From the NCBI RefSeq assembly GCF_036365525.1, contig NC_090404.1:4154001-4218000 (forward strand): DNA of 64,000 nucleotides. Direction: 5' to 3'. The position numbers were made by a program, and so were the translations under genes. The notes beneath the pieces are model-generated. The model ran no database searches, was not told the origin of the DNA, and saw nothing but the letters and a program-made list of their open reading frames with translations. Of this stretch, positions 4,669-61,896 are shown in pieces (the stretch's first letter is position 1; each line of letters begins with the position of its first letter). This DNA comes from Heterodontus francisci. Its lineage: Eukaryota.

Positions 4669-4796
4669 CTTCACCAGAGTGACGGCAGCGCTGTAGAAAA
4701 TGCTCAGGAAGAACAGGATGATGAATGTGGAAGCGGTTGTCCAGATGTTGCCGCTCTCTTCCTCATTGTCTTCAATCCAGATGTGGCCTGAGTAAT
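4669..4796 (-). CDS. IGHM: IgM TM1 exon ([43 protein letters not shown])
   Basis: Acidic spacer plus conserved antigen-receptor TM motif ([18 protein letters not shown]); gtgaga donor, phase 0. Confidence 0.95.
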
Positions 4797-5329
4797 CTTC
4801 GGGTTTTTAGAGGAGAAATATATTTAGATCGTTCATTAATCCAGGATATAAGATTGTCAATTTGCACTCGCAGAGTTCTTCCTTAAGCCATTATTTTGCT
4901 CTCTAATTTAATTTTCAGTTTGTATCCATTGTGAAGTTAATCACTCTCAGCAATCTACCTCTGTTACTAACCCCACAGCCATTCTTCCCATATGATCCTC
5001 GTCCAGGCCCTGTTGGAAAAAATGATATTTCTTTCTTCAGGGTCAGGCGCTATTCTCGTCTGGATCAATCTTGTTCTATCATTCGGGATATAGATGGAAT
5101 TTTACTGATCAATATCGATAGTTTTGAGATTTTCATTGGTGCTGGGTAAGAGATTGGATGCAAGTTCTAATCTTGTTTATTTGTGATGGAAGTTGTTGGT
5201 CAATCATTAACTGACCTCACTTTCTAAGTGAAAACTTTGCTTCACTGTGTTTGTAGGTCCAACATGTATGAGGGAATATGTTGGAAAAGGTGCCCATTCA
5301 AACAGTGCATTTGAATGCAACTTTCACAT

Positions 5330-6300
5330 ATAGCCTGGTGCTTTTGTTTGTACGCTTTAATACATGTGTATGTGTGCATAAGTATCTGTTACTTTGCATC
5401 ACTCAGTGCGTGTCCATGGCTTGTGTGTGTGAGATTTAATGTATGTTTTAATGCATTTCTTTGTGCACCCGCCTGTGAATGTCTCAATGTGCGTATTTAT
5501 ATCTTGATGCCTGTGTGTTGTGTCCCTGTATGTTAGTATGTGCTTATGTGCCAATGTGTATCAATGTGTGTTTTCAAGTGGCCGCGTGTGTGTGTATGTG
5601 CATGTGCGTGTGTATAAAATATATCATCCTTAATGTTTTGTCTTCATTCATCCACGTGTGTGCATGAGCATGATAATGTTTGTTTTTGTGTGTGGTTTGG
5701 TCCCCATGCGTGCTTCATGTTGTGAGCTTTTGTGTTGACAGATGTCTTTATGTTTTCCTGTGTGTCAATGTGTGTTTATGTTTCCATGTGTGCGTATGAG
5801 TTTGTTAATGTTTGTTTTTGTGTGCTTCTGTCCCCATAAGTGTGATAATGCGTCTGCTTTTGTGTTGATGTCTACGTTTATGCATTAATATGTGTGATTA
5901 TGTGCACATGTGTGCTAATGTGTGTGTTATGTGCATGTTTTTGCATCCATGTATGTGTCATAATGTTAATGTTGGTGTCTATTTGTGTGTGAGTGATCGT
6001 GTTAATGTGTCTGTCTAAATGTTTGTGTGCAGATGTGTTAGTCTGTTAATGTGCGAGTATGTTTCCATCTAGCTGTGTTTATGTCTATGATAATGAAAGC
6101 TTTTCCGTCTCTGTTTCTGTGTTTGTGAGACTGTACTAATGTGTACATTTATGTTTATTTTTGCGTGGGTGACTGCGAAGTGTTTATATCTGCGTTTGAG
6201 TCTGTTTGTGTGTGTAGGTGTAATTGTGTGGTTGTGCATTTGAGTGTGTTTATGTGTGTTGTTTTGTCTGTGTGCCTGCGCATCTTTATTCTTGTTCAAA
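5330..6300. repeat. Degenerate TG-rich low-complexity tract in the CH4-TM1 intron
   Basis: About 1 kb of interrupted (TG)n. Confidence 0.85.
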
Positions 6301-6443
6301 GTTTTACAGAGAATAAATAACCGGGTCTGACGCTGATGGTGTGCATTATGGAGAATATTCTTCACTGTTCTGTGTATAAATGTATTCTGTGCGAGATGTC
6401 ATCTGACATCATCTGAATGACTGTAGCAATGCAACTGATGGAT

Positions 6444-6651
6444 AAAAACAGAAGTTCTGGAAATACTCAGCAGGTCAGACAGCAGCTGTGGACAGAGAAG
6501 CAGAATTAACGTTTCAGGTCGGTGCCCTTTTCACACACCTGAAATGTTAACTCTGCTTCTCTCTCCACAGATGGTGCCTGACCAGCTGAGTATTTAAGCA
6601 TTTTCCGTTTTTATTTCAGATTTCCCCCATGTGCAATATTTTGCTTTTATT
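6444..6651. mobile_element. Short Penelope-type repeat in head-to-head (hairpin) arrangement
   Basis: Arms ~6445-6519 and ~6537-6612 are reverse complements; same family as 25850-26180. Confidence 0.7.
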
Positions 6652-7567
6652 TCCATGAAACTGATGGGCCTCAGAATCATCAGGAACAGGAGATGATTAA
6701 ATCTTCAGCTAGATTTAGATGATTATGTTATTAGAATTTAACAGGGAAACCGTGAACGATATTACGTTACATAAATATATATTTTACAATATGATTCCCA
6801 TGTGGAAAGTTTAAAATCTTCGCACACTGCGCTCAAAGCCGACTTTGTACTGATGGCATTTGAGTCCGTTTAATAGAGAGCAGGGGGAGTGGGAGTATAA
6901 GGTTTACAAATTTCCTTGCCCCTTTTTCTGTTGGAGGAAATGTGGCGAGGAGCTACAGTCAGTTCACAATTCTCTTTACCGTCTGTCTGTTGCAGAAGTA
7001 CCGTTGCAGTGGATTCACAAGTACCCTTTCCTCTTCACTGTTTGGGAAGTGGGGTACAGTGTTTTAGTAAATTCCTCTTCCCCCTCTTTCTGATGGGGGA
7101 TTTTGGGAAGATTTCGTATTCGTGTGTGGCCATCACTTCAGTTCCCAGTGCGCATGATGCTGCAACTAAAAACTGACCCTATTCTGAAGGGATGGCCAAC
7201 ACGAGAAGCAGGTACACCGAGATCTAAATGCACTGCGTATTTTTGTTGGTAAGGAGAAATGTCCAGGTTCCCCATCTCCTCCTCCCCGGCCCCCCACCCC
7301 TGTCCCCCTCTAATGCTCCCCACCGCCTCCCCCTCCTCCAACAGGAGGAAAGTTGCTGAAATACTTCCACAGAATCCAATAATGAATCAGGTTTACTCTG
7401 TGAATTATTATGTGCTGGAAACACTGGTTGTACAAGACTTGGGCCCGAGACCTGCAAATATCATGCTTTGATGAAAAGACCTACACTTAGCAAATGTGGG
7501 AAGCACAATTAATTGAGCTGTTGTGTATTTAAATCGCGATTGGAAGAAAAGGTCTTTGTTGTGTTTT

Positions 7568-7573
7568 TTTATT
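7568..7573 (-). terminator. Poly(A) signal of secretory mu mRNA
   Basis: AATAAA about 30 nt after the secretory stop. Confidence 0.75.
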
Positions 7574-7601
7574 TAAGAATTGAAATGCAATCGAGAAATT
7601 C

Positions 7602-7996
7602 TCATTGACATGAATTAACGGTGTCCAACAGTGCAAGGGAAATGTTCACAAAACTCGGTTTACCGCTGGATTTATTAACTGTTCTGTTGATGATCTTCAA
7701 GGGGATCGCTTCATGTCCCACCACACAGGAGTAAGAAGCGCCGCTGGCCCACTCCTCCGCTGCAATGGATAACAGGCTGTAGATGAAGAAGGAGCTCTTA
7801 TCGTTCTCCGCCATCACCTCGGTGTTCTTGTAGTTGCCGGGATTCACCGACTTGTCATTGACAGTCCACTTGACGAAGATCTCTCGGGGGGAGAAACCTC
7901 TCACTAAGCAGGTGAGGGAGAGGAACCTCTCAGCGGAGATTTCTTCTGCTGGGGGCAGGAGAACAGACACAGATGGTTCCCGCAGATCTTTCCATG
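7602..7996 (-). CDS. IGHM: IgM CH4 exon plus secretory tailpiece ([20 protein letters not shown])
   Basis: tttcag acceptor; tail with NIS sequon and penultimate Cys; internal G/gtaaa donor (exon end 7664) for the membrane form. Confidence 0.97.
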
Positions 7997-8466
7997 CTGA
8001 AAAATTAAAATAAATGTCAATAAACGAGACAATTTCAGAGACAATGACACCGGTGGTTAAATGTGAGAGAAATTGAGAAGGTTTTCCTTTTCCTCTCTGG
8101 GGCCTGTGCTGTTTTCCAGCTGGCGCAGAGGCGCTGCAATCCTGCTCGCCGAGAACATAAAGGATTAGACTGGAAAATTACATAGAACTTGCAGCACAGG
8201 AGCAGGCCATTAGGAGGAGCTAGCCTATGCTGGTGTTCATGCTGCACACGGACCTCCTCCCACCTTACTTCAGCTCTTTCTATTCCTTTCTCCATAATCT
8301 ACGTATCCAGCGTCGCCTGAAATGCATCACCTCTGGTCCCAGGGAGGTTCGTTAGTGAATTACAATTAAAGTATCAGCGTAATCCATTCAACCACTTAAT
8401 TGGGCCTTGCACAAACACCGGCAATAAGCACAACCTCTGACTTATTGCTTCAATCACATTGCTCAC

Positions 8467-8772
8467 CTTCCTTGTGGATGGAATCTCTGAGAGGAGTCGG
8501 CAGATCCTGATGGCTCACCACACAGTAGAACACAGCCTCACTCAGCCAGGCTTGTGTCGAGATGTCTACGGTGCTGATCACGCTGTCGGGATCCTCTCCG
8601 GGTTGGACGGCAATCTCTGATTTCAAAGGCTTCTGTTCTTGTGTCCAGGACACGTTGACACCATAAGGAGCATTAGACACGACGCAGGTTAAGGTGACCG
8701 TGGCCTCCAGTAAGACCTGTTCTATTGATGGTGGCAGTAGTTTAATTACTGGATGATTGCACTCGGAAGAAT
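8467..8772 (-). CDS. IGHM: IgM CH3 exon ([14 protein letters not shown]...SIHKE)
   Basis: ctacag acceptor, gtgagc donor, 306 nt phase 1/1. Confidence 0.96.
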
Positions 8773-9270
8773 CTGTAGAACAGAAATGAGAGTCGAAGAA
8801 ATCTCCATCTTCAGGATCAGGACGCGAGTATTTAACTATCACTTTCTTCAGGAGGGGAAAAACACCTTTCACTTCAACACTGTCGTTCATGGGAAGGGCA
8901 ACGATTTGTAAAATCTGGGACATCCAAGCGGATTACATCTCTGCTGAATATAATGGCTCTGTCACCCCAGGACATGAGCTACACATGTAATTCATACTGG
9001 CTCAAAACGAATGAAATTACGAATTTTAGGACCAACTGGAAACAAGGTTATTGTTCTGGTGCCTTGTCAGTATATTTGGGGAGATGAAAATGTTCAGCAA
9101 CCAGTCAGAGGAGGGGCGAAAGGTTGGTAAAATGCAGTCCCAAGGTTTTTGTTTTTGTGTGGTGAGGAATAATTCGCAATACCGGATGAGATAGTTTTCT
9201 AATATCTGCCACGAGTGAGTATTTATGTGTCGGCCTGGAGTTAGAAGGCGATCTGACCACAGGACTGTAA

Positions 9271-9825
9271 TAAGAACATAAGAATAAGAGGAGGCCATTC
9301 AGCCCCTCGAGCACGTTCCGCCATTCAATTACACGATGGCTGAATTGTATCTTAATTCTGTTTACCCATATATAACCCTTAATACCCTTACCTGTCATAA
9401 ATCTATCACTCGCAACATTAAAGTTTTCCATGGATGTCAAGCTTCTAAAGCGAGTTGGGGGAGAGAATTCCAGATTACCGCTATCTACTGTGTGAATATT
9501 CCCTTCCTGATATCATTCCTGAATGACCATGGTCTAATCTGAAGGTTATGCCCCCTTGTTCTGAAGTTCCTCACCAGAGGAAATATTTTTCTCCATTGAC
9601 TCCATCAATTCCAGTAAACATCTTAACCACCTCAATTAGATCACCCTTTAATCTTCTATACTCAAAGCAATACCAGTTTGGCCTGTGAAACCTGTCCTCA
9701 TAACTTAACCCGATCAGCCCCGTTATCATTATGGTCAATTCTTGTTGCACCACTCCCAAGACCAATACATTCTTCCTGTGCTCTGCAGTCCAGAATTGAA
9801 CACAGTTTTCTAAATAGGGTAGATG
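9271..9825 (-). mobile_element. CR1 LINE 3' fragment in the CH2-CH3 intron
   Basis: LENCVQFW...RRLKGDLIEV translation and CR1-type 3' tail. Confidence 0.8.
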
Positions 9826-10136
9826 CTCTTTCTGGCACCTGATTCCGAGGCCGTTACCAAGAAAGGGTTCCAGATGCCGATTGCTGCTCCGTGTATGATT
9901 AGCCCATTCAGGATAAAGCTGATTTACAGGCCACCTCACTCACTACATGACATCACAGTAGAGCTAATCATTCTTTCATGATGTGATGACATGTTGAACC
10001 GTGAGCAATCCTAATTCCTAATTTCTAAATCCTAAACTCACAGCGAAATAACACATAAAAACTGCACGATGGCGATTTAGAAATTGTTCTTTGTACTAAT
10101 TCCAATAAATTCCTGTCTTTCAGTAACATGGAGTAC

Positions 10137-10454
10137 AGAAAGATCCGGTGATGTTTCGGCTTTGGGTGGCCGCTTGATGGGAGACCTGGCAGGTATAGAC
10201 CGTGTTGGTGAACCATTCCCGAGCGGGAACTGTCAGCCGACTGGTTGCTGAGAAGTTCCCGTTCGTTTCACAGGCGGGAGAGGTGACGAAGCCCGATTCC
10301 ATGGGATGCCCATCCTTCAACCAATTCACGGTTATTGCTTCTGGATGGAAATCGATGATTGAACACACGACAGTTGCAAATCTGCTGCTTGTGATTTCTT
10401 CACTGGAAGTCTGGGTGAGGATAACAGTTGGATGGACGATGTCACCTTTACAAT
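10137..10454 (-). CDS. IGHM: IgM CH2 exon (DCKGDIVHP...QSRNITGS); 3' boundary uncertain because the donor is degenerate
   Basis: aaag acceptor and an open Ig C1 domain; only weak phase-1 GT sites (TCT/gtactc, CAT/gttact) before the in-frame TGA at 10122-10120. Confidence 0.88.
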
Positions 10455-10666
10455 CTTTAAGAAAAAACACGTTAGACATTTCTAGAAGAAATTAATAACT
10501 AATACAAACTGTTCTTATATTTTAACAGGTTATTTGCATCAAGCAGGCACTAACTGATGTTTCCAGGGGTCTGAACTGTGCACAACACTCTAAATGTGGA
10601 ATAGCCAAAGTTCTACACAAGATCCTTCTAGCTTTTCTGTTTTTCCACAGTTTCCACAACACTAAC

Positions 10667-10963
10667 CTGGAATTTCCTTGATCCAGAGCGACTCTCCGCG
10701 TCGAACCTCGCAGTAGATTTTGCTGCTTCCCACCTCTGAATCGGTGATGGTTAATTGGCTGCTCAGGGTGTAGGTTCCCTTCTTGTTCAGCACTGACGGG
10801 TAAGTCTTCAAACCAGTGGTGATCGGTTCTTTACCTTTCTTCCAGGAAACGCTGGTGATTTGGGGGATGTAGTCCATCGCCAAACAGCCGTAGGCCATGG
10901 AGCCGTCGGTGTTGGGTTGTTCACAGGAGCACAGGCCGTAAAGGGTTGGGGGAGACGGTGTCG
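10667..10963 (-). CDS. IGHM: IgM CH1 exon ([14 protein letters not shown]...WIKEIP)
   Basis: cctag acceptor, gttagt donor, 297 nt phase 1/1, Ig C1 Cys-Trp-Cys pattern. Confidence 0.96.
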
Positions 10964-11611
10964 CTAGGAAAGAATGGCAAATTGAACAAGTTAGACTGTG
11001 ATTCCTGCTTATTAAATAACCAGACAACTCGCAATTCGACTCCAGCTGGAAACTGATTCCAATATTTTCTGATTAAAACCTTCATCCGCATTTGAGCTGC
11101 GATCAGTTACATCATTTGGTGATCATCACCTGTCGGTCCCCTGGTCAGGAACACACCTCTCTTTCAGGACCTGTCACATTACTAAAGTAAGAGCCTTTTG
11201 AAGTTATCTCAATAAGGTATTTTTCATTGGATTAAACTGAAAGAGGAGTTTCCCACTTTGTTCGGCCAATATTTATTTCTAAATCAACAACACTTGGTCA
11301 AAAAACACGCGGCATTTAGTTTTTGGAAATTTCTTCTCTGCAAATTGACTGCTGGGTTTCCCCGCACCTCCACCTCCTCCCAGCGCCCCTCCCCACCACC
11401 AGCAGACCACCCCGCACCACCCCCCCCACCAACCCCCACTCCCCCTCCAAATAAATAGCAACTAGCCTGAAAAAGTGCCATTGGAATGCGTGCTTATAAA
11501 ATGAACTTAATACTGTAAACTTGAATACCAGGCAAATTCATTCCATTATTTTCCCATAAAAACCTACAAAACATCCGAGCATGCTTATGACCCAGGGTGA
11601 TAAATTCATAG

Positions 11612-11960
11612 ACATGATAGCTGAGAAGAAGGCCATTCGGTCCATCAGGCCTGTGAAAGATCACTCCAGCGATCCCGCTGACCTTCCAATTCCTAATCTT
11701 CTTTTCAAAATTTCATTTTATCCAGCTCTTTTAGATTCTATTTACAGCCCTCTTTCTGACAGGACATTCCAGATCCGATCAACCCCCTGTGTAGAAGAGT
11801 AGATTCATACCCTCTTCCTTCATTCTTTTGACGCTGATTAAAAATCAGTGCCCTCGACAGACCAACTCACTGATCTGGGCAAATTGGTTTCTGAATTTCT
11901 GTGTAAAACATTCATTATTCAAAACACCTCTAGCAGACTTCATTTTAATCTTCTATGTTC
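11612..11960 (-). mobile_element. Old CR1 3' fragment
   Basis: aggccattcgg 3' motif and decayed 3' region shared with other copies. Confidence 0.55.
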
Positions 11961-12659
11961 CCATAATAATGAAGAACTTTTACAATAAATAGTTGAAGTC
12001 TACTTTAAAATATGGACTGAATCATTTAGTACACAGATGTCAGAGGGGAATTTTTACACAGCCTAGTTTCTGGAATTAAAGTTTTTAATGACTCGGCAAT
12101 GACTCTAAGCTATCACTTTCCTTTTAAGTACTTGAAGATTGTGACTTCTGTTCTATATTATTCGACTGAATGGATTCTCTGGAGTTTGCTTCTCCCTCCA
12201 ACTCAAATAATAAACCGAATTAAATCCGATCCCTAAAAATCGGTCATTTGGACTGATGCGCTTTAAAGTTAATTTTCCAAAGTATCTTCCCACCCCTCAC
12301 CAGTGAGAACTGGTGTTGCTGACTGTGTCGTGACAGACACTTCTTCTTGCTGCTTGCACCGACCATAATGTGAACACCAGGACAGGTTTCTTCTACAAAT
12401 ATCTGATATTGTCATTACTTACACATTATAAATCGAGTGAATATCAGTCGGTTCCATGGAAGGAAGGACAAAAGTTCCTGAAGTGTTATTGCTGACATGG
12501 TCAACTCTCACTTCTGATTTGTGTGGACAATTCAAACACCTGAGGCCTATCGGTCAGATATTGGAAGCTCGCTCACCAATATGATGCAAAAGAGGTTGCC
12601 GGTTATGGTGGCGCAACAGTTGGACATATGGGCTTTCAAATGGCATTAGATAACATGTC

Positions 12660-13735
12660 ACGTAAGAGAACATTCGGAAAATGGAAGCACGTGGATTAAA
12701 GGGGTCTCAGTAGCCTGTTCAGGTACAGGAAACAGAGAGTGACGGTGAACCAATGATTTTCTGACTGGAGAGAATTAAGCATTGCGATCCCCCTTGGGTC
12801 GGTCATAGGGTCATTATTATTTTTGTTAAATATAATGACGTGGTATTGGGTATGGGGCGTAGAATTTCGAAGGTCAAAGATGATACTAAACAAATTGTGA
12901 GCAGGATAGTATCAGAGTTCAGAAGGACATGGGCAGGTGAAATGTTCAGAGACAGAGCAAATGCAATTTAATGCGGTTAAATGTGAAGTGCTGGACCTTT
13001 TGAGGAACAATACGGAAAATTAATGCAATCTAAATGGTCCTATATTGAAGGGGTAGAAATGCAGAGGGACCTGAGTTGCATTTTCACAATGTTTTTTTTC
13101 AAGGTGGTTAAGAAAGCGAATGGAATACTTGGTCTTGTAAAATGGAGTACGAATTACAAAAAACCAGGAAGTCATATTAAAGTATTACAAATCACTAATT
13201 AGGCTGGAGTATTTTTGCACAATTCTGGCCATCACACTTTCGAAAGGATGTCAAGGCTTTGGGGGGAGTGTGGAGGGAGTTTACCAGAATGATGCCATGA
13301 ATGAGGGAGTACAGTTGTATGGAGTTATTATACGAGCCGAATTGTTCTCGTTAGGCGCTTTCCGATTAGTTATGTTCAAAATTATGGGATGTTTTGATAC
13401 AGCAGATAAGGAAAAGCTTTTTCCTCTGAAAAGGGGGTCTGTAACAAAATAATTAATTGTCAAAAAAGAGCGTGGGCGGGTGGTGGCTGCGGAAAAAGGT
13501 TTCTTTCCTGACAGAGGGTGCTTTTCACAGAAGCACAGAACGATTACACCACAAAAGGAGGCCATTCAGCCCGTCGTGTCTGTGCAGGTTCTCTGCAGGT
13601 GCAACCGGCATATCCTCGAAGGACATTAATTTGCGTAGTTATGAGGGGAAAACTGGCTTGAAAGATTAAATTGGAGAGCGCTTTGAGAGCTAACACAGGC
13701 ATGACGGGCTGAATGGCCACATTCTCTGCGAGAAC
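12660..13735 (+). mobile_element. Old CR1 RT/3' fragment in the J-C intron
   Basis: Decayed similarity to the CR1 RT and 3' UTR elsewhere in the window. Confidence 0.7.
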
Positions 13736-14399
13736 TTTCTGTCATTCTCCCCGACTCAGTAGTATTTGTTATCCCCAATTTAATGGGACGAAAAGCTTCA
13801 TAAATTTGAACATCTCTGTGACATATATTTTGTTGCTTTTTATAATGAAAGAGGGTTTTTAAAATAAGAGGTTCTGAGCGATTTTATTCAAATGAGTCAA
13901 TCAGATACTGTCAGAGACTTAAAGCATATTGTGATTGACATTGATTGCAGGCTAATGATATCACTTCAAAAATTTCACAAGAGCTTACTTCAGTGGCTGT
14001 GTGCCCTCTGCTGTGACACAATCCAATGATTGCATCTCCCCAGAGTTTACCACTGACTGTGACCTTTTGAAAATACTTGAACTAAATAATGATTTCAAAC
14101 ATGAGAATATCATGATGGTTATTCGGAGCGGGAGTCTCCACTATCTCCATTTAAAGCGCCAAAATAACTTCCAGTCTCCCATCAGTTGAGAACAGGCGTT
14201 GGTCTCTGGAGCGTTACAATCACTTCCTGAAACTGTTTGTTCTGAAAGTGCACTCAAAATCAGGCCAATCTCATTCAATAATTATCTATATGTTTAAATA
14301 TTATTAATTCATTAAAATTTGGCCAAGAATTATTATTAAAATCAATTCATGTGCGTTGTTTCATCTGGACAATTTAATAATTCATATTCATATATCTGG

Positions 14400-15215
14400 G
14401 TCGAGGACTCACAGCTTATGAGTTAGATGCAGATTGAGATTCCTTGAACACTGTGGGGAAAATATTCTCAGATCAGGTACAGAACAGTTAAGCTGCAAAG
14501 TAAAGATCCCTCTATACGGCCCTATCATGAGTTGTAATCTCAGACGTCGCAAGTGTTATATTCCGTAGAAAGCCGCCTCGACACCACACTGTCACTCTGG
14601 GTCAGGTACAGCATCAGTTTAATATAAAACAAAAATTCCCTCAACGCTGTCCCATCAAATATATCCAGGACAGGTTCAATCCGGTTTAGATTAGGGGCGG
14701 CACAGTGGCGCAGTGGTTAGCACCGCAGCCTCACAGCTCCAGGGACCCGGGTTCGATTCCGGGTACTGCCTGTGTGGAGTTTGCAAGTTCTCCCTGTGTC
14801 TGCGTGGGTTTTCTCCGGGTGCTCCGGTTTCCTCCCACAAGCCAAAAGACTTGCAGGTTGATAGGTAAATTGGCCATTATAAATTGTCACTAGTGTAGGT
14901 AGGTGGTAGGGAAATATAGGGACAGGTGGGGATGTTTGGTAGGAATGTAGGATTAGTATAAATGGGTGGTTGATGTTCGGCACAGACTCGGTGGGCCGAA
15001 GGGCCTGTTTCAGTGCTGTATCTCTAATCTAATCTAAATCTAATCTAATCTAGATACTGAGTAATTCCTCCCTCTACGCTGTCCCCATCAAGTAGTCCCA
15101 GAACAGTTACAATATAGATTAAATATACAGTAAAACTTCCTCTACATTGCCGAATCAATCACTCCCAAGGGAGGCACATTACTGATTACAAACTGACCAA
15201 ATCTCCTTCTACAGT
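14400..15215 (-). repeat. ~66-bp repeat array, split by a SINE
   Basis: Recurrent agtaaagctccctctacgctgtcccatcaa-like units on both sides of the SINE. Confidence 0.65.
14693..15050 (+). mobile_element. tRNA-derived SINE (HE1/V-SINE-like), young copy
   Basis: A box TGGCGCAGTGG, B box GGTTCGATTCC, CR1-like 3' end ggccgaagggcctgtt, (ctaat)n tail, apparent tagat TSD. Confidence 0.9.
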
Positions 15216-17721
15216 CCGTCTGTTGTGTCTCTGAACTGTTATTTCTGACTGCCACAGACTGGAATTATGATCTCATTGCTGAGGCGCCTCATCAAACTTA
15301 AAGTCAAACTTTTAGGTTTCTCGGGGGTACAAGTTTCTTAATTAAATGGATCAAGTTGCACTCCTTGAAATGAAACGAACCAGTCTGTTTGCAACCTGCA
15401 GGGAGGATTCCTCGTCCTGACACAGTGAGCAGGTACACAGAAACAGAACAGACACAAACGGTGCAACAATCGGGCTCTCAGCAGATAGATCTGTTCAATT
15501 GTCAATTTCAATGAAGCTGTTTTATTCTAGTTCATCAATTATCAAATTGTGACCACTCCAAATCTGTATACTCTTTTGAAATTAAACTGATATTCATTTC
15601 AAAAACTCCCTTCGACCTCCAACTGTTTCTCCCTGTCTGTTTACAATCTTAAAAGCATGTAAGAAAGTTTTGCTTTAAATGAGTACATTAGAAGAATACA
15701 CATTCAGGAAAATTAGATGTCCATAACCAGAACTCAGTGACAGAGTAAGAATTTAGAAAATCAGGAGATATTTATCTTGCAAACTGATTACCCACTGGTT
15801 TGATACAATTGCAGAATTCAATTTTACAAAAAAAAATAGTTGAACCACTGCTCAAAGTTAATTCATTAAAATCTGCGGTGACACTTGATTGAGCTGAGAA
15901 CAGCTGAGTAAGAAATGTATTCTCTAAGTTATTGCTAGACATAATGAAAAAGTTACTCCGATTCTTGAGATTTTGCACTCATTGGAATCCTGGCAAGTAT
16001 ACTATTGAATTGTGGGAGGTCATTTATGTTTAGTAAATTAGTACAATTATATTCTAAGCTAATATTCATGTTATCTGATTTTATACTGTATTTACCATTT
16101 ATAAATAAATAAAAATAAATAAATTAGTTAATATTACTTCAAGACCAGTTTCTGCCCGGCACCCTGTGAATTAATGGAGTTTTAATTAAGTCATTATGAC
16201 ACTTTATCAATATTAAATAATCAACGTCATAGTAATAGATGAAAACTTTCAGACAAATATATTACTTTTGCTGAAATCGAATCACAGTGCAATAATTTAA
16301 AATGAACAATAAGTTCGAGTCCCGCCCTGCTTTCTCTCTGCAAACTTGTAAACTGCGCAGGTATCTGAATGCGTTGATATATTATAAGCTCCTACCATTC
16401 TCAGCGAGTATTTCACACAATGGATTTAGCCTGGCCGGGGTCACATGTCACTAACTGGGCTGCAACATGGCCTGTTTGTGAAAGCAGCTCTCCCGTGTTT
16501 AAATATCGTTATAAATCTTAACTATATGAGATAAAATATCAAAAATATCCTGGCACTTTGCGATCAGTAACTGTGCAGCCACAATTTAATCACACGATGT
16601 TTTTAGATTTTACTCCCGTAATTCACACAGTCCCTGTAAATTAATTGCTAAATATATTGTGATTTTTATTGAAAGAAGTTCCAAAATGATCACTGCAAAA
16701 CTGGACGAAAACAACTCTTTCAGATCATCTGTGACATTGAAACCTAATGAGGAAATGTAGCCGAGATTTTGCGGATCAATTTAATATTTATTAAGAATTA
16801 AGCATAACTCTCAGGTATAATCTGTTCTTTGTCTATCATTCCATCCTGCGTGCAGCACAACTATGGGAGACAGGATGTTGTTACTGAATTCAAAACTAAC
16901 ATTAAACTTTTGTAATTAATTGAATCTGCTTGAATTTCCAGGTGTTATTTGTTTGTCTTTAGCCTTACGCAGTCTGCAAGTTTCTTCAATTTAAATAAAA
17001 TCATATGCACAATTCTTTGACTGCCATTGACCTCTTGTCCCAGGAAAATGGTTAATATTAGATTAGTGATAATTATCTCACTATCCAACAACAAATGACA
17101 TTGAAGAAAGAACATGGAAGAACATGAACTCAAAGAATGCAATAACCGGACAGATATATTACACTGACAAACTGCAATTTACAACGCCTATTTAAGTTGT
17201 AAGTAAATACAAGCTGACATTCACCTTTTTTAATCAGGAATATCACAATTAATTTAAAAGCACTCATTAACCTGAAAACAGCACTGGAATAAGTACACTC
17301 TTATTGAAATAATTTCAAGCACAATTAAAAATAGTCTCCAGTCATAAAGTTTTCCGGTCACGACAATTGTGCGCTTGGCACGCCAGAACTGTAAAAGATG
17401 ATTCTTGAATAATGAATCGATCTCAACATGAAAGCATATTTGGTTTATATGAGGACATATTGCCGCATTTTAATTGTTTGAACTGTATTAATTTTACTCT
17501 CCAATCTGCAAAGCTGCTACTTATTCAGTTTGTAATTACAGTAACATTTCACGTATTGAAGGATCGTTACAAACCATGGCTTAACAGTTCAATCTGCAAT
17601 TATCATTTAAATTTTTTTAAATGCCTTGAAATATCCTTTTTTTTAATTTCTGATATCTGCCTGTTATCCGGCTTTCGAATCATCTCTGAAGCAGTTTCAA
17701 ACAAACAGAATGCATCCATTT

Positions 17722-18592
17722 GATCAGAAAACCTGCAGCCGCTCGATGTCACCCGGGTTCAACAAAGCAGAAACGCCAAATAGTTTTACAAATTTTACTT
17801 TGTAACACAGAGACACACTCTCCTCAGCAGATAAGCTCCAACTCACATCACTGAGGGGCTGAATCCCGCCTCAGTACGTTTCAAGGCGAAGCAGCTTAAT
17901 TCCACAATCACTTTCAGCAGAATCAAATGTAACATCCCAAAAAAAACATCTCAATACAGAATCCACCGAGCCTGCCTGTCTCTGAATTACCAAATGTATA
18001 AAATAAAGGCAGCAGATTTGTTAGTACAGAGAGCATGTTTAATAAATTAATATTGATTCTGTAGCATATTTCATTGATATTGCCTGATATCACTGCATTA
18101 TTAAAAGTGAGGTTATATTAATGTAAATCTGGCCAAAGCTGCAAATTTGTTATTTCTGTAGTTCTTAATTACATCAAAATTTATTGCATTACATATGAGC
18201 ATTCGTAAGCAGTAGATTGATAGATGGCAATTTAATTACCACAAATAAAAATAGATCAAAATATCAGAAGGCTATTTTTGACCACTGAAGCTTTCTGCAT
18301 AATTTTATTTCAAACATATTTAAAAACTTATTGTTTCTATTAGATCAGAAAACCTGCAGCAATTAGATGTCACCCAGATTAAACATTGCAGAAACGTCAA
18401 ACGGTTTAACAACAGTTTGGTATTTAAAGTAGCCCAAACACTCAGTCCCATCAACAAATAAACACCAAATCACATCAATCTGGAGCTGAATCCTTCAACA
18501 GCACCGTGTGTAAAGAAACCATTAAGTTCTTTAATCCCTTAGCAGCAGAATCACATGAAACATTGCAACAAATTCGCAATATAGAATCCACC
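17722..18592. repeat. Diverged direct duplication in the J-CH1 intron (17722-17967 and 18343-18592)
   Basis: Colinear shared blocks gatcagaaaacctgcagc, gatgtcaccc, gcagaaacg, gctgaatcc, cagcagaatca, agaatccacc. Confidence 0.85.
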
Positions 18593-18692
18593 AAATCCAC
18601 TTTTCAGTGAACGAATGTATCATTGCAAAAAACACAAATATAAAATTAAAAACACAAATAAAACAGTTAATGAATAAATGTATGTTTCTTAC

Positions 18693-18740
18693 CTGCAGTC
18701 ACCGTCACCATGGTCCCTTGTCCCCAGTAGTCCATGGCGT
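18693..18740 (-). CDS. IGHJ: JH segment (AMDYWGQGTMVTVTA)
   Basis: WGxG motif; gtaag donor at 18692-18688. Confidence 0.96.
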
Positions 18741-18779
18741 CACAGTGTTACATTCCCTGGGCTGGGTCACACAATAACC
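18741..18779 (+). promoter_or_regulatory. JH 5' recombination signal (23-RSS)
   Basis: CACAGTG (18741-18747), 23-nt spacer, ACAATAACC (18771-18779). Confidence 0.93.
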
Positions 18780-19105
18780 GGCTCTGCACAGAATAATGAG
18801 AAATCCATTATTATTTTAAATATTCACACTCCAGAGGCAAAATAAAATATTGATGGTTCTTTGTAAAATTATAACTGCGTTAATAATTCTTTTCACTCTT
18901 TATAAATTTCCCTGATGTTTTATATTTCACACAGTAACATATCAGCAATTATTGAAATCACTAACTGATGAATGAATAATTAATCCGTTTATCCATAATA
19001 AACCGTGCTAGGAGGACAGTGCTGGACACAAATAGTACTTCACTGTATATATAGTTGGATTGTTAAAGCGAGCACTGACCCAGACTCATCAATTAGTGCT
19101 GAGGG

Positions 19106-19174
19106 AGTTTTTGTATTGACAGTAACTGCTGTGCCACCCAGTATATCACAGTGAGACAAACCGTGTCAAATACT
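19106..19174 (-). other. D2 segment ATATACTGGGTGG (19134-19146) flanked by two 12-RSS
   Basis: CACAGTG-12-TCAAATACT on + (19147-19174); CACAGCA-12-ACAAAAACT on - (19133-19106). Confidence 0.93.
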
Positions 19175-19485
19175 GCGGCGGACTGTTAACTGTAAAATAC
19201 AGAGATTACATTTCACAGCGCTCTCAAAAACATGATTGCGATCCCCCTAAGAGGACATCAGTGAGAAAGTTCAGTTTATACCAGTCATTATATTTATAAA
19301 GAGATCGGAATATTTCAGAATCATCTGTGCTGATTTAGCGTGACAGTCAACATTAATAAAGCAGGAGACTTCTATACAATGTTACAAATCTATATTGTAT
19401 TTCCCCAATTTTTTATTTAATCCTCATTGTTTACGGACCATCGGCCGTGTTAGTGATCGCTGGTTTGAGCAAACTCCCTGTCTGG

Positions 19486-19566
19486 GGTTTTTGTATGAAG
19501 ATCTCGCTCTGTACAGCACCGTGACCCACTGCTGTACCCACAGTGACACGAACCTGCACAAATACT
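19486..19566 (-). other. D1 segment GGTACAGCAGTGGGT (19524-19538) with 5' 12-RSS and 3' 22-RSS
   Basis: V side: CACAGTG-12-ACAAATACT on + (19539-19566). J side: CACGGTG-22-ACAAAAACC on - (19523-19486). Confidence 0.93.
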
Positions 19567-19948
19567 GCACTCACTCTCTGTTCAGTACTGCCTCCCAATA
19601 TTCACTTCAAATAAAAATTCACTTCTGATCTAATTCAGAATATATCCAAAAGTTTACACCATGCAGTAGGAATTGAACCCAGCTCCAAGTAACTCCCTCC
19701 AGATATCAGTCCCATTAAAACTAGCATCTTATCCAGATCTGCAATTGCTGACACTGTTAACATTAAAAATCAGCACAGCCAAAATTACTCATCAGTTAGT
19801 GTCTGAGATTTGTACCATTGAATTTTCACGGTGCTAGGTCTGTGAGAGACGGTCTATGGCCTGGTTCTGAACAACGCCGTTAATATTGTATTTAATAAAA
19901 TTACTGACCGTCAGTTTATGATGGAAGTTGTTGAATTCCCTCTCCATG

Positions 19949-19987
19949 TGTTATTGTACATGTCCAGCCCTGGTTCCTCTCGTTGTG
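19949..19987 (-). promoter_or_regulatory. VH 3' recombination signal (23-RSS)
   Basis: Heptamer CACAACG (19987-19981), 23-nt spacer, nonamer ACAATAACA (19957-19949). Confidence 0.9.
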
Positions 19988-20292
19988 ATCTCTTGCACAG
20001 TAATAAATGGCGGTGTCTTCAGTCTTCAGTTTCTTCATGTCCAAAGCGAAGATGTTTTTTGAAGTGTCTTTGGACGCAGTAAATCGATCTTTAATCTCCG
20101 GGGCGTAGTTGTTGCCGGATGAACTGTAGTAGTAAACTATCCACTCCAGCCCCTGCCCGGGAACCTGTCGGACCCAGTACATGCGGTAGCTGCCAAGATT
20201 GAACCCGCTGGTTTTACAGGTCAGTCTCAGGGAGCCTCCGGGTTTCCCGGTCTCTGCCTCTGGCTGAGTCAACACGACATCCGAATGGACAC
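19988..20292 (-). CDS. IGHV: Germline VH segment ([22 protein letters not shown]...[12 protein letters not shown]...[10 protein letters not shown])
   Basis: tttacag acceptor, open frame, canonical Cys/Trp/YYC Ig V motifs, followed directly by an RSS. Confidence 0.97.
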
Positions 20293-20420
20293 CTGTAAAA
20301 AAATATCAAAAACCCCGAGGATTAATCCTGGTGAAATGATTCCTGACTCTGTAACATTCCAGAGAGAGACTAACACTGAGACGGTAACAGTGAGAGACTC
20401 GGACAGTAAAAACTACTCAC

Positions 20421-20466
20421 GGGATAAGAAAACCAGTAACAGACTGAGAGAAATCGCCGACCTCAT
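20421..20466 (-). CDS. IGHV: IgM heavy chain leader exon (MRSAISLSLLLVFLS + phase-1 base)
   Basis: ATG at 20466-20464, hydrophobic signal peptide, gtgagt donor at 20420-20415; splices in frame to the V exon (CGT GTC CAT TCG GAT = RVHS/D). Confidence 0.95.
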
Positions 20467-20556
20467 CTTTCTGGCAATTTGGGGGCAATGGTTCTGGTAA
20501 GAACTCACTGAGCAAACCGACTCCCACACTGTTGTATTGCGGTCCCAGTGACCGGC

Positions 20557-22570: not shown

Positions 22571-22665
22571 AGAAAATACATTCTGTAATTGATAAATATG
22601 CTTGTTTGCGTGGATGGAGGCATAGCTGCAACGATGCAGGGATGACTAGATAGTTGGATGGCTGA

Positions 22666-23200
22666 ATAAAAGCAAAATACTGCTGATGCTGAAAATCTGA
22701 GATCAAAGTGGAAAGTGTTGGACATACTCAGCAGGTCTGGCAGCAACTGTGGAGAAAGAAACAGAGTTAACGTTTAACGTCTATGCACCAGGCGACACAG
22801 TGGCACAGTGGTTAGCAATGCAGCCTCACAATTCCAGTGATCTGGATTCGGGTACTGCCTGTGTGGAGTTCTCCTTGTGACCTCGTGGGCTTCTGCCGGG
22901 TACTCTGGTTCCTTCCCACAGCCAAAGACTTGCAGGTCGATGGGTAAATTGGCTATTGTGAATTACTCCTAGTGTGGGTATGTGGTAGGGATTATGGGAT
23001 TAACGTAGGATTAGTATCAATGGGTGGTTGTTGGTTGGCACAGACTCGGTGAGCCGAAGTGTCGGTTTCAGTGCTGTTTGCTTCTTCATAAACTTTCATC
23101 AGAACTAGCAAAGGTTAGACATGTAATAGGCTGTGTGATAGTGGTGGGGTTGGTGAGGAATAGAACAAAATGGAAGGTTTGGCACAGAGCAGAAGAGATC
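22666..23200 (-). mobile_element. Penelope-type short repeat interrupted by a SINE
   Basis: Left part ends gttaacgttt...ctatg; right part resumes ctttcatcagaact at 23093. Confidence 0.7.
22791..23080 (+). mobile_element. HE1/V-SINE-like SINE
   Basis: Colinear with 14693-15050. Confidence 0.85.
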
Positions 23201-24404: not shown

Positions 24405-24522
24405 AACAAAAACAAAAAGTACTGGAAAAGCTCAGCAGATCTGGCAGCATCTGTGGAGAGAGAAGCAAAGTTAACGTTTCAGGTCTGTGACCTTTCATCA
24501 AAACTGGCAAAGTTTAGAAAAG
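24405..24522 (-). mobile_element. Penelope-type short repeat with hammerhead-like core
   Basis: Minus strand reads agtt-TTGATGA-a-aggtc-aca-gacct-GAAA-cgtt-aact. Confidence 0.7.
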
Positions 24523-25195: not shown

Positions 25196-25849
25196 GTCGT
25201 TTTTACTAACGATAGTTGTAAAAAGGAGTGATGGATTGAGCAAGTAAGTCATACACTGCTCGAATGAAAAAGCTGAGAAGGAGGCCATTCAGCCTTTCAG
25301 GACTGCAGCAGCTCTTTGACAAACTATCCATTTATTCCACTCCCCCCTGTTATTTCGCCAAAACCGTGCATTCTTTTTCCATTTGAAATATCTATGAAAT
25401 TCCCTTTCAAAAGTTATTGTTCAATCTACTTCCCCCCTTTCAGGAATTGCATTCCAGATCATAACAATTTCCTCTGTCATTTGTCTTCCTCCTCATATCG
25501 CCTAGAGTCATAGAATTAGAGAGTCATTTACGGCACAGACGGAGGCCATTCGGCCCATTGAGTACATGCTGGCTCTCCACAGAGCTTTTCAGTCAGTGCC
25601 CCACTGCCCCACTCGATCCGCGTCGCCCTGCAAGTCTATTTCCTTCAAATGACCATCCAATTTCCTTTTGAAGTCATTTAATGTCTCTGCTTCCACCAAC
25701 TTTGTGGACAGCAATTTCCAAGTCATTACCACCCGCTGTGTTCCAGCGTTCCTCTTCATATTACCCTTGCATCTATTGCCCAAAGCCTTCATTCTGTGTC
25801 CCCTCGTCCTTGTACCATTAGTTAATGTGAACGACCTTTCCTCCTCTAA

Positions 25850-26180
25850 TATAAAATAAAACAAGAAATGCTGGAAATACTCAGCAGTATTTATACTCAG
25901 AATGGTATGTTAATGCCTTTGTTCCATGACCTTCTGGTCAGTTATTCTCTGTGATCCTGTCTTTAGCAACACCTTCACCTTTGTTATCTCTTGCCCCACC
26001 CCCGCTTTACTTGCTTAAAACCTTTTACATTTCTAATATTTGTTAGTTCTGATGAAGGGTCACTGACCTGAAACATTAACTCTGTTTATTTCTGCACAGA
26101 TGCTGCCAGACCTGCTGAGTGTATCCAGCATTTCTCGTTTTTATTTCAGATTTCCAGCATCTGCAGTATTTTGCTTTTAT
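25850..26180 (+). mobile_element. Non-autonomous Penelope-type insertion with 13-bp TSD and hammerhead core
   Basis: TSD tttcctcctctaa (25837-25849) / tttccacctctaa (26181-26193); inverted 5' segment; CTGATGA...GAAA at 26049-26073. Confidence 0.75.
26045..26081 (+). ncRNA. Minimal type-I hammerhead ribozyme-like motif
   Basis: agtt CTGATGA a gggtc act gacct GAAA catt aact: helix I agtt/aact, 5-bp helix II, vestigial helix III. Confidence 0.6.
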
Positions 26181-26967
26181 TTTCCACCTCTAACTTGCCT
26201 AAATCTGTCATAATCTTGTACGTGTCTATTAATCTCCCCTCAACCTCTTTTGTTTGAAGAAGAATAAGCTCAGTTTTTCCAACTTATCCTTGTCACTAAA
26301 ATCCTCCATCCCCAGAACTATTCTAATAAATCTCTCTCAAGGACTCTCACATACTTCCAAAAGTGTGGTGACCAGAACTGGACGCAATACTCCAGTATTG
26401 GCCTGACCAGAGCTTTAAAAATGTTCAGCGTAACTTCCCTGATTTTGTACTCAATACCTGTGTTTATGAGGCCCAAGATCCCATATGCTTGACTAACCAC
26501 TCTCTCAAGATGTTGTGCCACCTTCAAAGATCAATGCACATGCATCCCAATGTCCCCCTGTTCCTGTACACTCTTTAGAACTATGCCATTAAGTAAATGC
26601 TGCCTCTCCCTTTTCCTTCTGCCAAAATGCATCACCCGCCACTTGTCTGTCCACTCTGCTGACCTATCTATGACCTGTTGCAGTCGTTATATATCATCCT
26701 CACTACTTGCCATACCTCCAACATTGGTGCCATATGCAAATTTGGAGATTCTACTCCATATTCCAAGATCCAAGTCCACGTAGCTTTTGGTTATTTTGCT
26801 ATTTACCTTGAATTTTTGTCCTCTCGTTATCAACCGTTCTACCACTGGAAATATTTTCAATTTACATATTCTATCAAACGCACCAAGGCTCCTCAGACAG
26901 CACCTTCCAAACCCACAACCTCTACCACCTCGAAGGACAAGAGTACCAGATGCATGGGACCATCACA

Positions 26968-42000: not shown

Positions 42001-42455
42001 CGTCCAGCCGCATCGATGATGCAGTTGAAGTCACCGCCTAGGATGACCGGCCTGGACGTCGCGAGCAGCAGTGGGAGCTGCTGGAAGACGGTCAGCCGCT
42101 CGCTGCGTTGTACCGGGGCGTACACGTTGATCAACCGGAGCGGAGCGTTGTTGTACATCACGTCCGCTACGAGGAGGCGGCCGCCCACCACCTCCTTAAC
42201 TTCGGAGATGGTGAAGTTACCTCCCCGCAGCAGAATACCCAGGCCGGAGGAACGGCAGTCATTACCCCCCGACCAGATCGATGGCCCGTGGGACCACCAT
42301 CGCGACCACTGCCTGCAGGTGCTGAGGTGTGGTATTCCACACTCCTGCAGAAACAGTAGGTCAGCTTTGACCTTGGCAAGGTAATCCAAGGTTGAAACAC
42401 ATCGCGTAGTAGATTTAATGCTACGCACATTAATGGAAGCAATTCTTACACCCAT
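39048..42455 (-). CDS. Tx1 ORF2: APE endonuclease, reverse transcriptase and C-terminal zinc motif (1135 aa, intact)
   Basis: SINVRS, LQE, GGDFNC, SRID, SDH; NWRPISLLNVDYK, DQEKAFD, RQGCPLSP, YMDD; CPRVGC...HLLLEC. Confidence 0.96.
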   Translation of the reverse strand: MGVRIASINVRSIKSTTRCVSTLDYLAKVKADLLFLQECGIPHLSTCRQWSRWWSHGPSIWSGGNDCRSSGLGILLRGGNFTISEVKEVVGGRLLVADVMYNNAPLRLINVYAPVQRSERLTVFQQLPLLLATSRPVILGGDFNCIIDAAGRSGSDDSKLDATSRFLIETVKDAKLHDVFSKPADGAQRRYTWSRSDGSARSRIDFLFVSRAVTVGSTDVKPVFFSDHCLLLADCHLQDDQRVGRGTWKLNATLLTPENVEELKRDYKGWRTVKPLFESPVHWWEAIKENIKRFFIHKGVQKARERQRELSRLQKIMQNLLRLQSMGVEVKEDLQEVKSQQASLFAKEASKIIFRSRVRSIEQDETCSRYFFQKVHRESSVISSLKEEDGSVTSSQSDILRISKSFYAGLYDAKPTDSRASQSFLSSITEVLDDSRRERLDKPLILDELTKAVESFETSKTPGSDGLPVELYSSLWDWVGPDLLEVYESMLLAGSMSESMRRGIITLIYKQKGERAEIRNWRPISLLNVDYKILSKVIASRVKSALELVIHPDQTCTVPSRKISDSLALLRDTIAYVRDRRVDTCLISLDQEKAFDRISHTYMMDVLSKMGFGEGICNWIQLLYTNISSAVSINGWESESFPIKSGVRQGCPLSPVLFVCCIEPFAESIRKDASIRGVTIPGSGGAQVKTSLYMDDVAVFCSDPLSVRRLMSICDQFELASGAKVNHGKSEAMFFGNWADRSFVPFTVRSDYLKVLGIWFGSAGACTKTWEERVAKVRQKLGMWGQRSLSIVGKNLVIRCEALTLLLYVAQVWPIPHSCAVAVTRAIFRFVWGSKMDRVRRDTMFKSLDMGGKNVPNVALILMTTFVCGCIKLCVDPQYANSKCHDVLRFYLSLVLRRMGLVTLPRNAPCSWDVPYHLSFVEQFLRKNTFDHRSIRQWSARNVLKALREKETVDPVGWFPEQTVKVIWRNASSPELSNKHQDVAWLVVRRALPVRSFMHTRSLAPSAQCPRVGCGGEETVAHLLLECAFAKQVWKEMQWFLSRFIPSSSVTQESVLYGLFPGTHTEANINCCWRTINSVKDALWSARNLLVFQRKELSTTECCRLAHSKVQDYVLRDALKLGAAAAKAQWGKTTV

Positions 42456-42468
42456 TTTTTACTAAAAA

Positions 42469-55965: not shown

Positions 55966-56123
55966 AAAAGCAGAAAGCGCTGCAAATACTCAACAGGTCT
56001 GGCAGCATCTGTGGAGAGAGTAGCAGTGCTAAATTTTCAGGTCTGTGACCTTAACTCAGAACACAGATCAGCACTTTCTATTTTCATTTCACACTTCCAT
56101 CATCGGCAGTTTTTCCTTTTATT
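55966..56123 (-). mobile_element. Penelope-type short repeat, decayed
   Basis: ctcaacaggtctggcagcatctgtggagagag...ttcaggtctgtgacctt..tcagaac. Confidence 0.65.
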
Positions 56124-61092: not shown

Positions 61093-61198
61093 AAAGCAAA
61101 ATACTGCGGATGCTCGAAATCTGAAATAAAAACAAGAAATGCTGGAACCACTCAGCAGGTCGGGCAGCATCTGTGGAGAGAGAAGCAGAGTTAACGTT
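61093..61198 (-). mobile_element. Penelope-type short repeat truncated at the gttaacgtt palindrome
   Basis: Well-preserved match to the family arm. Confidence 0.7.
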
Positions 61199-61896
61199 AA
61201 GGGACACTGACTATGATGAGAGGTTGAGTAAATTGGCCGATATTCTCTGGAGTTTAGAAGAATGAGAGGTCTTCTAATTGACAGGGTGGAAGCTGAGAGA
61301 TGGTTTTCACTGGTCAGAGAATGCAGAAAACTGGGACACAGCCTTAGGATAAGGGACCAATCATTCAGGCGTCAGATGAGGAGAAATTACTACACTCAAA
61401 GCTTTGTGAATGTTTGGAATTCTCTACCACAGAGGGTTGTGGATGCGCCATTATTGCATACATTTAAGGCTGGGATAGATAGTTGTTTGGCTTCGCAAGG
61501 ATTCAAAGGGTATGGGGAGTGGCAGGAAAGTGGCGTTGAAGCCCAAGATCAGCCATGATCGTTTTAAATGGCGGAGCAGTCTCGATGGACCATATGATCT
61601 ACTTCTGCTCCTATTGCTTGTGTTCTTGTGGGAGCTCCCTTGGGCAGTGGTATTTGGCAAATAACCCTCTGGCTGGGTAATCTTTTGCAAGTTTCGATTG
61701 GATGCTGCTTTAATGCAACTGATGCATTTAAAACTTGCCTCCTCCCAACTGAATAGAATTCCGCAAGTGTTGTTGTCGAGAGTTGTCGACATTTGCAATT
61801 TCAGTGAGATCTTTGTTTCACAGCAGAGGCTGTTTATCGGTGTGACAGCGCCCTCTGGTGAGCACTAATCGGAACTCTCATTCTGGAGTTTTTGAC

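What the first reader, a model, noticed from the sequence alone, without database searches (positions are those of the whole stretch)
25837..26193. Mobile non-autonomous element family carrying a minimal hammerhead ribozyme (retrozyme/Penelope-like)
Seen: a 331-bp insertion with a 13-bp TSD, an inverted 5' piece and agtt-CTGATGA-a-gggtc-act-gacct-GAAA-catt-aact. Sister copies at 6444, 22666, 24405, 55966 and 61093 give the consensus AGTT CTGATGA A RGGTC ACW GACCT GAAA CGTT AACT: helix I AGUU/AACU, a 5-bp helix II, an extra A after the CUGAUGA box, and a palindromic AACGUU in place of helix III. Known: Penelope-like element terminal repeats carry minimal type-I hammerheads with palindromic helix III thought to cleave as dimers. 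Inference: an abundant shark ribozyme-bearing retroelement (6 copies in 64 kb, no ORF), one copy inside an IgM intron. Each copy here carries at least one substitution, so they may be inactive relics.
Basis: partly seen in the sequence, partly recalled or inferred. Interest (0 to 1): 0.7.

Follow-up and report, generated by a model that had tools for sequence, protein, structure and literature searches.

The report
Shark Penelope retrotransposon end with hammerhead
This 331-base insertion is a worn end-piece of an ordinary, very abundant Penelope-type jumping gene, not a separate ribozyme mini-element; its self-cutting RNA motif is of a known kind, likely sits at the very start of the element's RNA, and likely does not need to cut for the element to spread.

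Summary
The insertion, its 13-bp target duplication and the minimal hammerhead (26045-26081) are real. It is not an ORF-less retrozyme. It is the 5'-truncated end (pLTR) of an autonomous Neptune-type Penelope-like element: 27 of 29 independent loci picked by the RT carry this end downstream, and a 3,290-bp head-to-tail array has open 924-codon RT+GIY-YIG frames. At least 47,750 genomic copies match the motif exactly. Distant relatives keep the same core with different helices. Minimal hammerheads in PLE ends are published (2014).

Beyond that: (1) 70% of exact matches, including the array with open frames, have C instead of U at core position 4. (2) Short copies start at the hammerhead's first bases, 30 nt behind a TATA-like box and with excess G, not at the cut site (0 of 30), and end at two sites about 37 nt apart. 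They are likely run-off copies of uncut, capped RNA, fitting published in vitro work on a lizard Poseidon element.

The focal copy has a broken palindrome and lies 5.4 kb upstream of an IgM-type gene; the intronic copy is the 6442-6652 sister. This scan has noted the same family many times, in this and other genomes.

The parts
25837..25849 (+). left target-site duplication (13 bp), in an older host repeat
   Evidence: empty sites in L081, L124, L134
25850..25913 (-). inverted 5' piece: 25854-25887 is the reverse complement of the element end up to the inner 3' site (about +100), followed by small scrambled bits
   Evidence: 97% over 35 nt to L096; scrambled bits read by eye
25914..26044 (+). 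3' UTR part of the pLTR upstream of the inferred start (+1 = 26045); TATA-like TTAAAA at 26015-26020 (-30)
   Evidence: 89% to L096; TTATAA or TTAAAA at this place in most of 82 long copies
26045..26081 (+). minimal type I hammerhead: helix I 26045-48/26078-81, core 26049-55, extra A, helix II 26057-61/26065-69, GAAA, palindrome broken by a CpG change (ACAT); predicted cut 26077|26078
   Evidence: all 12 paralogous cluster copies have the broken palindrome
26082..26180 (+). rest of the terminal repeat, including the ~37-nt tail (about 26144-26180)
   Evidence: 3' ends of 66 young copies fall at +96-107 (31) or +135-145 (35)
26181..26193 (+). right target-site duplication
6442..6652 (.). sister: head-to-head inverted pair with only the 3' half of the hammerhead, in the intron between the last C exon and the TM exon
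22665..23130 (-). sister: hammerhead split by a ~300-bp younger insertion
24405..24520 (-). sister: A-U helix II subfamily, C3 mutated to T
55966..56062 (-). sister: degraded short copy starting at helix I
61093..61200 (-). sister: begins inside the palindrome, no catalytic core
4700..20470 (-). context: Ig heavy-chain gene (leader about 20470, V 19916-20305, four C1-set exons 11072-7602, TM-like exon about 4725); the label IgM rests on the four-domain layout and recall

Best explanation
The insertion is a dead, 5'-truncated copy of the terminal repeat of an autonomous Neptune-type Penelope-like retrotransposon, and the hammerhead it carries is likely the first 37 bases of that element's capped RNA, which is likely copied into DNA uncut. 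Steps: (1, inferred) a partial tandem puts a TATA-like box and start site in front of the ORF, so the RNA begins at helix I; (2, shown in vitro for a lizard Poseidon element, inferred here) the RT-GIY-YIG protein nicks AT-rich DNA on either strand and starts reverse transcription inside the RNA at one of two sites about 37 nt apart (+100 and +137); (3, inferred) many cDNAs run off the 5' end and give 100-140-bp stubs that begin at helix I, often with an extra G; others continue, on a multimeric RNA or after a jump, into the 3' UTR and ORF; (4, inferred) the focal copy is one arm primed at +137 that got 130 nt past the start, plus a 34-nt arm primed at +100 on the other strand. The ribozyme would cut only as a dimer through its ACGU palindrome, probably with help from the protein; in the most recent subfamily the U4C change would slow it, so cutting is likely an accessory step (RNA turnover or circle formation) and not needed for insertion.
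For: Identity: 28 of 30 loci picked by a 300-bp RT stretch carry the insert's sequence 1.1-1.4 kb downstream (27 of 29 without the query's own locus); 26 of 30 show the motif. One frame holds RVT_1 and GIY-YIG (E 6e-6 and 2e-3, both under Pfam's cut-off) with DKG, YIDD and a C-x4-C-x2-C linker. Partial tandems pLTR-spacer-ORF-pLTR in L096-L098 and L309 and a 3,290-bp head-to-tail array with two 924-codon open frames. Structure: 7 descriptor hits in 6 of 80 metagenome loci of related elements, 0 in 20 shuffles; L225 has one on each side of the ORF, 3,066 bp apart; all 7 pairs change on both sides. 5' ends: of 30 loci picked by an anchor downstream of the cut, 20 end at -3..+10, 8 far upstream, 2 at +14 and +26, 0 at the cut. 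Young subfamily: 16,515 keep the upstream 7 bases, 9,970 have a non-template base at -7; of these 1,982 have G and 1,756 C or T at -1, G share 0.53 against 0.31-0.40 expected. 3' ends are bimodal, 31 and 35 of 66. C4 33,243, U4 14,507, CpG-decay control (CA) 1,404. PMC11167929 (parts 1-2 of 4 read): internal RT start at two sites that define the tail, both strands extended, hammerhead mutants insert normally, unprocessed RNA is the main substrate.
Against: No RNA evidence: the runs laid were contigs of guessed RNA and cannot show starts, ends or cutting. In 9 of 16 short copies with a duplication, the duplication runs up to or into the element start, so the flanking base can be target-derived and the G excess may be microhomology, not a copied cap (that set was partly selected for G). 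By eye 2 of the 20 'short' calls (L118, L123) run on in diverged upstream sequence. The pairing is partly by construction, since the metagenome hits were found by a descriptor that demands pairing. A few copies do start at the cut (4 to 9 of 100 listed, by eye). The sequence before helix I also reads as a branch point plus 3' splice site, as in D. virilis Penelope (PMC4209133). The identical tandem units could be a local duplication.
Confidence: 0.72

Rival explanations
1. The hammerheads at both ends of the unit cut as a dimer, the unit is ligated to a 3,290-nt circle, and rolling reverse transcription of the circle makes the tandems; cutting is a needed step.
For: Seamless head-to-tail array of 2.8 units and partial tandems; palindrome and helices kept across distant relatives; model proposed in PMC4209133.
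Against: A circle has no end at helix I, yet thousands of copies stop there; 0 of 30 start at the cut; the array itself has C4, a change reported to lower activity considerably in vitro (PMC3088659, passage); hammerhead mutants insert normally in vitro (PMC11167929).
Confidence: 0.12
2. The short 100-140-bp units are a self-propagating non-autonomous family (SINE- or retrozyme-like) that borrows the PLE enzyme.
For: Short units are a large share of copies, with their own 9-15-bp duplications (16 of 48). A preprint argues that animal retrozymes derive from pLTRs (10.64898/2026.07.22.740005, parts 1-3 of 5 read).
Against: Short and long young copies share three variants in like numbers (9/7/7 of 24 and 8/7/4 of 20); the TATA-like box lies outside the short unit; no array of short units was seen in the loci fetched; the focal copy is not of the short form.
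Confidence: 0.08
3. The sharp 5' boundary marks a 3' splice site, not a start site: short copies come from RNA cut or spliced at the AG before helix I.
For: Branch-point-like CTAAT/CTAAC and CAG sit just before helix I; in D. virilis the intron ends at the 5' end of helix I (PMC4209133).
Against: No shared upstream exon in the flanks of short copies; many keep the A and G of the AG; TATA-like box at -30 and G excess fit a start site.
Confidence: 0.08

Closest known systems
Minimal hammerheads in pLTRs of metazoan Penelope-like elements (Cervera and De la Pena 2014, PMC4209133; parts 1-2 of 4 read, one of two supplements searched)
   Same: Type I, no loop 3, palindromic 15.2-16.2, extra base between 9 and 10.1, short helix I, mostly solo motifs from truncated PLEs, reported in Neptune elements of fishes.
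   Different: No shark term in the supplement searched. The dominant young form here has U4C and U17; older forms have G-U or A-U at 10.1-11.1.
Neptune-clade endonuclease-positive PLEs (Craig et al. 2021, PMC8557442; passages and section 15 read)
   Same: Single ORF with RT, CX2-5CxxC linker and C-terminal GIY-YIG; partial tandems, inverted 5' copies, 30-40-bp tail.
   Different: Insertions here often have plain 9-15-bp duplications, and no microsatellite bias was noticed in the loci seen (not tested formally).
Poseidon element PAc of Anolis carolinensis (Frangieh et al. 2024, PMC11167929; parts 1-2 of 4 read)
   Same: Two start sites of reverse transcription that define the tail, extension on both strands, uncut RNA as template.
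   Different: Other clade; in PAc the hammerhead overlaps the start codon and priming is 111-118 nt into the ORF; here it precedes the first in-frame ATG, and the 5' run-off spike was not described in the parts read.
Non-LTR retrozymes of animals (PMC7229834, passages; bioRxiv 10.64898/2026.07.22.740005)
   Same: Type I hammerhead in a short non-coding repeat related to PLE ends.
   Different: Retrozymes are tandem arrays of 150-1000-nt units, with canonical hammerheads in the examples read; these copies are solo or inverted ends of a coding element.

Membership tests
Endonuclease-positive PLE, Neptune type | single ORF with RT and C-terminal GIY-YIG | tested here: met
   (Pfam E-values significant but under gathering cut-offs)
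Endonuclease-positive PLE, Neptune type | CX2-5CxxC linker before the endonuclease (shared with Nematis, absent in Poseidon) | tested here: met
   C-x4-C-x2-C at residue 790 of 924; definition
Endonuclease-positive PLE, Neptune type | partial tandems (pLTR), inverted 5' copies, 30-40-bp tail | tested here: met
Endonuclease-positive PLE, Neptune type | RT tree placing it with Neptune and not Nematis | not tested
   no named reference set was at hand; Neptune is by elimination (only Neptune and Poseidon reported in vertebrates)
Minimal type I hammerhead of PLEs | core boxes, extra base at 9/10.1, palindromic 15.2-16.2 | tested here: met
   family; the focal copy itself fails at the palindrome
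Minimal type I hammerhead of PLEs | helices I and II kept by compensatory change | tested here: met
   (7 of 7 pairs change on both sides; partly by construction); 7 hits against 0 in shuffles
Minimal type I hammerhead of PLEs | U at core position 4 | tested here: not met
   not met in 33,243 of 47,750 exact matches; met in the focal copy's subfamily
Minimal type I hammerhead of PLEs | self-cleavage as a dimer | not testable with these tools
   needs an assay; folding gives only a weak 6-bp duplex, -4.1 kcal/mol
Non-LTR retrozyme | no coding partner in cis; short unit in tandem arrays | tested here: not met
   coding element in cis; the only head-to-tail array seen has a 3,290-bp coding unit
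Non-LTR retrozyme | abundant small circular RNA | tested here: inconclusive
   contigs only

The most novel reading that the evidence does not exclude
In shark Neptune elements the hammerhead is the capped first 37 bases of the transcript; reverse transcription starts 100-137 nt from that cap, so the many stubs are run-off intermediates fixed in the genome, and long copies need a retrovirus-like jump within the repeat. The most recent, still coding subfamily spread to more than 33,000 copies with a U4C core, so the motif is kept as a promoter-proximal or protein-binding fold, or as a slow switch, more than as a cutter.
Probability: 0.5. Interest if true: 0.55.

Novelty: new member of a known kind. 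Interest (0 to 1): 0.33.

Why it matters
The role of the hammerhead in Penelope-like elements is called unclear in the literature read (PMC8557442). This genome holds tens of thousands of copies whose ends map the RNA start and the two priming sites, and a natural pair of subfamilies (U4 and C4) that makes 'is cutting needed?' directly testable. The focal copy itself is an ordinary relic with no sign of a role for the Ig gene.

Tried and rejected
Rfam scan: 10 weak hits, none a hammerhead; the minimal form is not caught. Idea that the canonical U4 is only CpG decay of C4: rejected, the mirror product CA has 1,404 matches against 14,507. Idea that copies start at the cut: rejected as a main class (0 of 30; 4 to 9 of 100 in a set enriched for such copies). 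Idea of a shared spliced exon upstream of short copies: none seen. Laying four public runs on L097: contigs only, RNA status guessed for three; the terminal repeat is covered about 1000-fold deeper than the ORF start, which reflects copy number as well as anything; not used as evidence of expression. Folding of two copies did not give the active dimer as the lowest-energy form, and the focal slice in that call was off by one base, so its energy is void. Lunse et al. 2017 could not be read, so whether U4C is among its variants is open; supplement file 1 of PMC4209133 and the preprint's supplements were not seen and may list sharks. Paper searches for prior description; none listed a shark PLE hammerhead or a 5' run-off spike, but the library lacks most subscription journals and Repbase/Dfam were not searched.

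Full report
1. Observation. The motif lies at 26045-26081 in a 331-bp insert (25850-26180) flanked by a 13-bp duplication with one mismatch; other copies of the host repeat are empty at this site. The five sister places are real, but only 24504 and 56059 hold the motif in one piece; one is split by a 300-bp insertion, one starts inside the palindrome, and one is a head-to-head pair with half the motif. No window copy passes a strict descriptor. The window lies in a tandem array of Ig heavy-chain clusters about 75 kb apart; the insert is present in 12 of them at 95-100% identity and the palindrome is broken in all 12, so it was already damaged before the clusters multiplied. The focal copy is about 5.4 kb upstream of the leader exon; the 6442-6652 pair is the intronic one.

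2. What it is. Dispersed copies run upstream into decayed RT and GIY-YIG coding sequence. Picking loci by a 300-bp RT stretch, without regard to the ribozyme, 28 of 30 carry the insert's sequence downstream (27 of 29 without the query's own locus) and 26 of 30 show the motif. Long copies have the PLE layout: partial tandems of pLTR, spacer, ORF and pLTR (L096-L098, L309), inverted 5' copies (L031), and a head-to-tail array of 3,290-bp units with two 924-codon open frames, identical to each other. The frame holds RVT_1 and GIY-YIG and the C-x4-C-x2-C linker that marks Neptune and Nematis. The closest named proteins are from other sharks and rays at 65-74% identity, then marine invertebrates at about 50%. 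A degenerate 35-nt pattern has 47,750 exact matches, the reversed control 0; a 19-nt anchor has 87,904. Both are lower bounds.

3. Is it a hammerhead? In 80 metagenome loci of related elements a strict descriptor found 7 motifs in 6 loci and none in 20 shuffles; one locus has a motif on each side of the ORF. Core positions are constant and helices differ; all 7 pairs counted change on both sides, though the descriptor demanded pairing. Within the shark family position 7 is free (U or A) and pair 10.1-11.1 is G-C, G-U or A-U. This matches the minimal PLE hammerhead of PMC4209133. Cleavage was not tested.

4. Core variant. 33,243 of the 47,750 matches have C at position 4. The mirror CpG-decay product is rare (1,404), so both U4 and C4 are master states. 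The C4 form is in the array with open frames. All 7 metagenome motifs have U4, so C4 is likely derived. U4C is reported to lower activity considerably in vitro while a viroid stays infectious.

5. Where copies begin and end. Of 30 loci picked by an anchor that starts at the predicted cut, 20 end at -3..+10 of helix I, 8 far upstream, 2 at +14 and +26, none at the cut (by eye two of the 20 are long but diverged). In the young subfamily 16,515 copies keep the seven upstream bases and 9,970 have a non-template base at -7; about a tenth of the latter are variant long copies, by eye from the 100 listed. Among them 1,982 have G and 1,756 C or T at -1, a G share of 0.53 against 0.31-0.40. A set enriched for ends near the cut has 4,074 members, mostly point mutants, 4 to 9 of 100 starting at the cut. 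3' ends of 66 young copies fall at +96-107 (31) or +135-145 (35), none elsewhere. Short and long copies share subfamily variants.

6. Mechanism. PMC11167929 (lead) shows for a lizard Poseidon element that reverse transcription starts inside the RNA at two sites that define the tail, on both DNA strands, that hammerhead mutants insert normally, and that the ribozyme needs the protein to cut. The two 3' ends, the inverted arms and the lack of ends at the cut fit this. The added inference is that the RNA starts at helix I, so priming near the cap gives run-off stubs, while longer copies need a multimeric RNA or a jump. The focal copy is a longer arm with the tail plus a short inverted arm without it. 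Against: no RNA data; in 9 of 16 resolved junctions the flanking base can come from the target; a splice-site reading of the same boundary is possible.

7. Verdict. A new member of a known kind: ordinary relic, known motif, known class. The retrozyme label fails. The start-site spike and the U4C young family are the parts a specialist would want; my paper searches did not list them, but one key paper and several supplements were out of reach. Earlier notes of this scan report the same reading in this and other genomes; a look-up by sequence found nothing. I had reached the start-site and U4C readings before seeing them; they are not counted as support.

Noticed in passing
window 39048-43803 (-): Two long open frames, 444 aa (ZCCHC3-like RNA-binding domain, zinc knuckles) and 1136 aa (AP endonuclease, RT, zf-RVT): an apparently intact L1/Tx1-type LINE between Ig clusters (the clade label is recalled).
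   Followed up: no
window and G000:C34 4.02-4.86 Mb: At least 12 Ig heavy-chain cluster units about 75 kb apart, 95-100% alike at this insertion; shared changes in the insert could date and order the cluster duplications.
   Followed up: partly
L300 (G000:C1:23220000-23229999): Head-to-tail array of 2.8 units of 3,290 bp, two identical, with open 924-codon frames and the C4 hammerhead.
   Followed up: partly
L084/L085, L154/L155, L159/L160, L168/L169: Mirror-image pairs whose two hammerheads lie a few to about 50 bases apart; typically one arm has the 37-nt tail and the other not.
   Followed up: partly
window 26074-26103 and the same place in all copies; also the spacer in L096-L098: Three good 3' splice-site-like stretches: before helix I, after the hammerhead (pyrimidine run, CAG, ATG) and before the first in-frame ATG of the long ORF. 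No donor was identified.
   Followed up: no
window 22785-23088: A ~300-bp repeat inserted into the hammerhead of one sister copy; looks like a SINE (label by eye).
   Followed up: no
L247:4431-4457: A metagenome relative also has U at the cleavage position 17, like the shark family.
   Followed up: no
L031:5973-6944: A keratin-like reading frame lies next to the long element (by eye).
   Followed up: no
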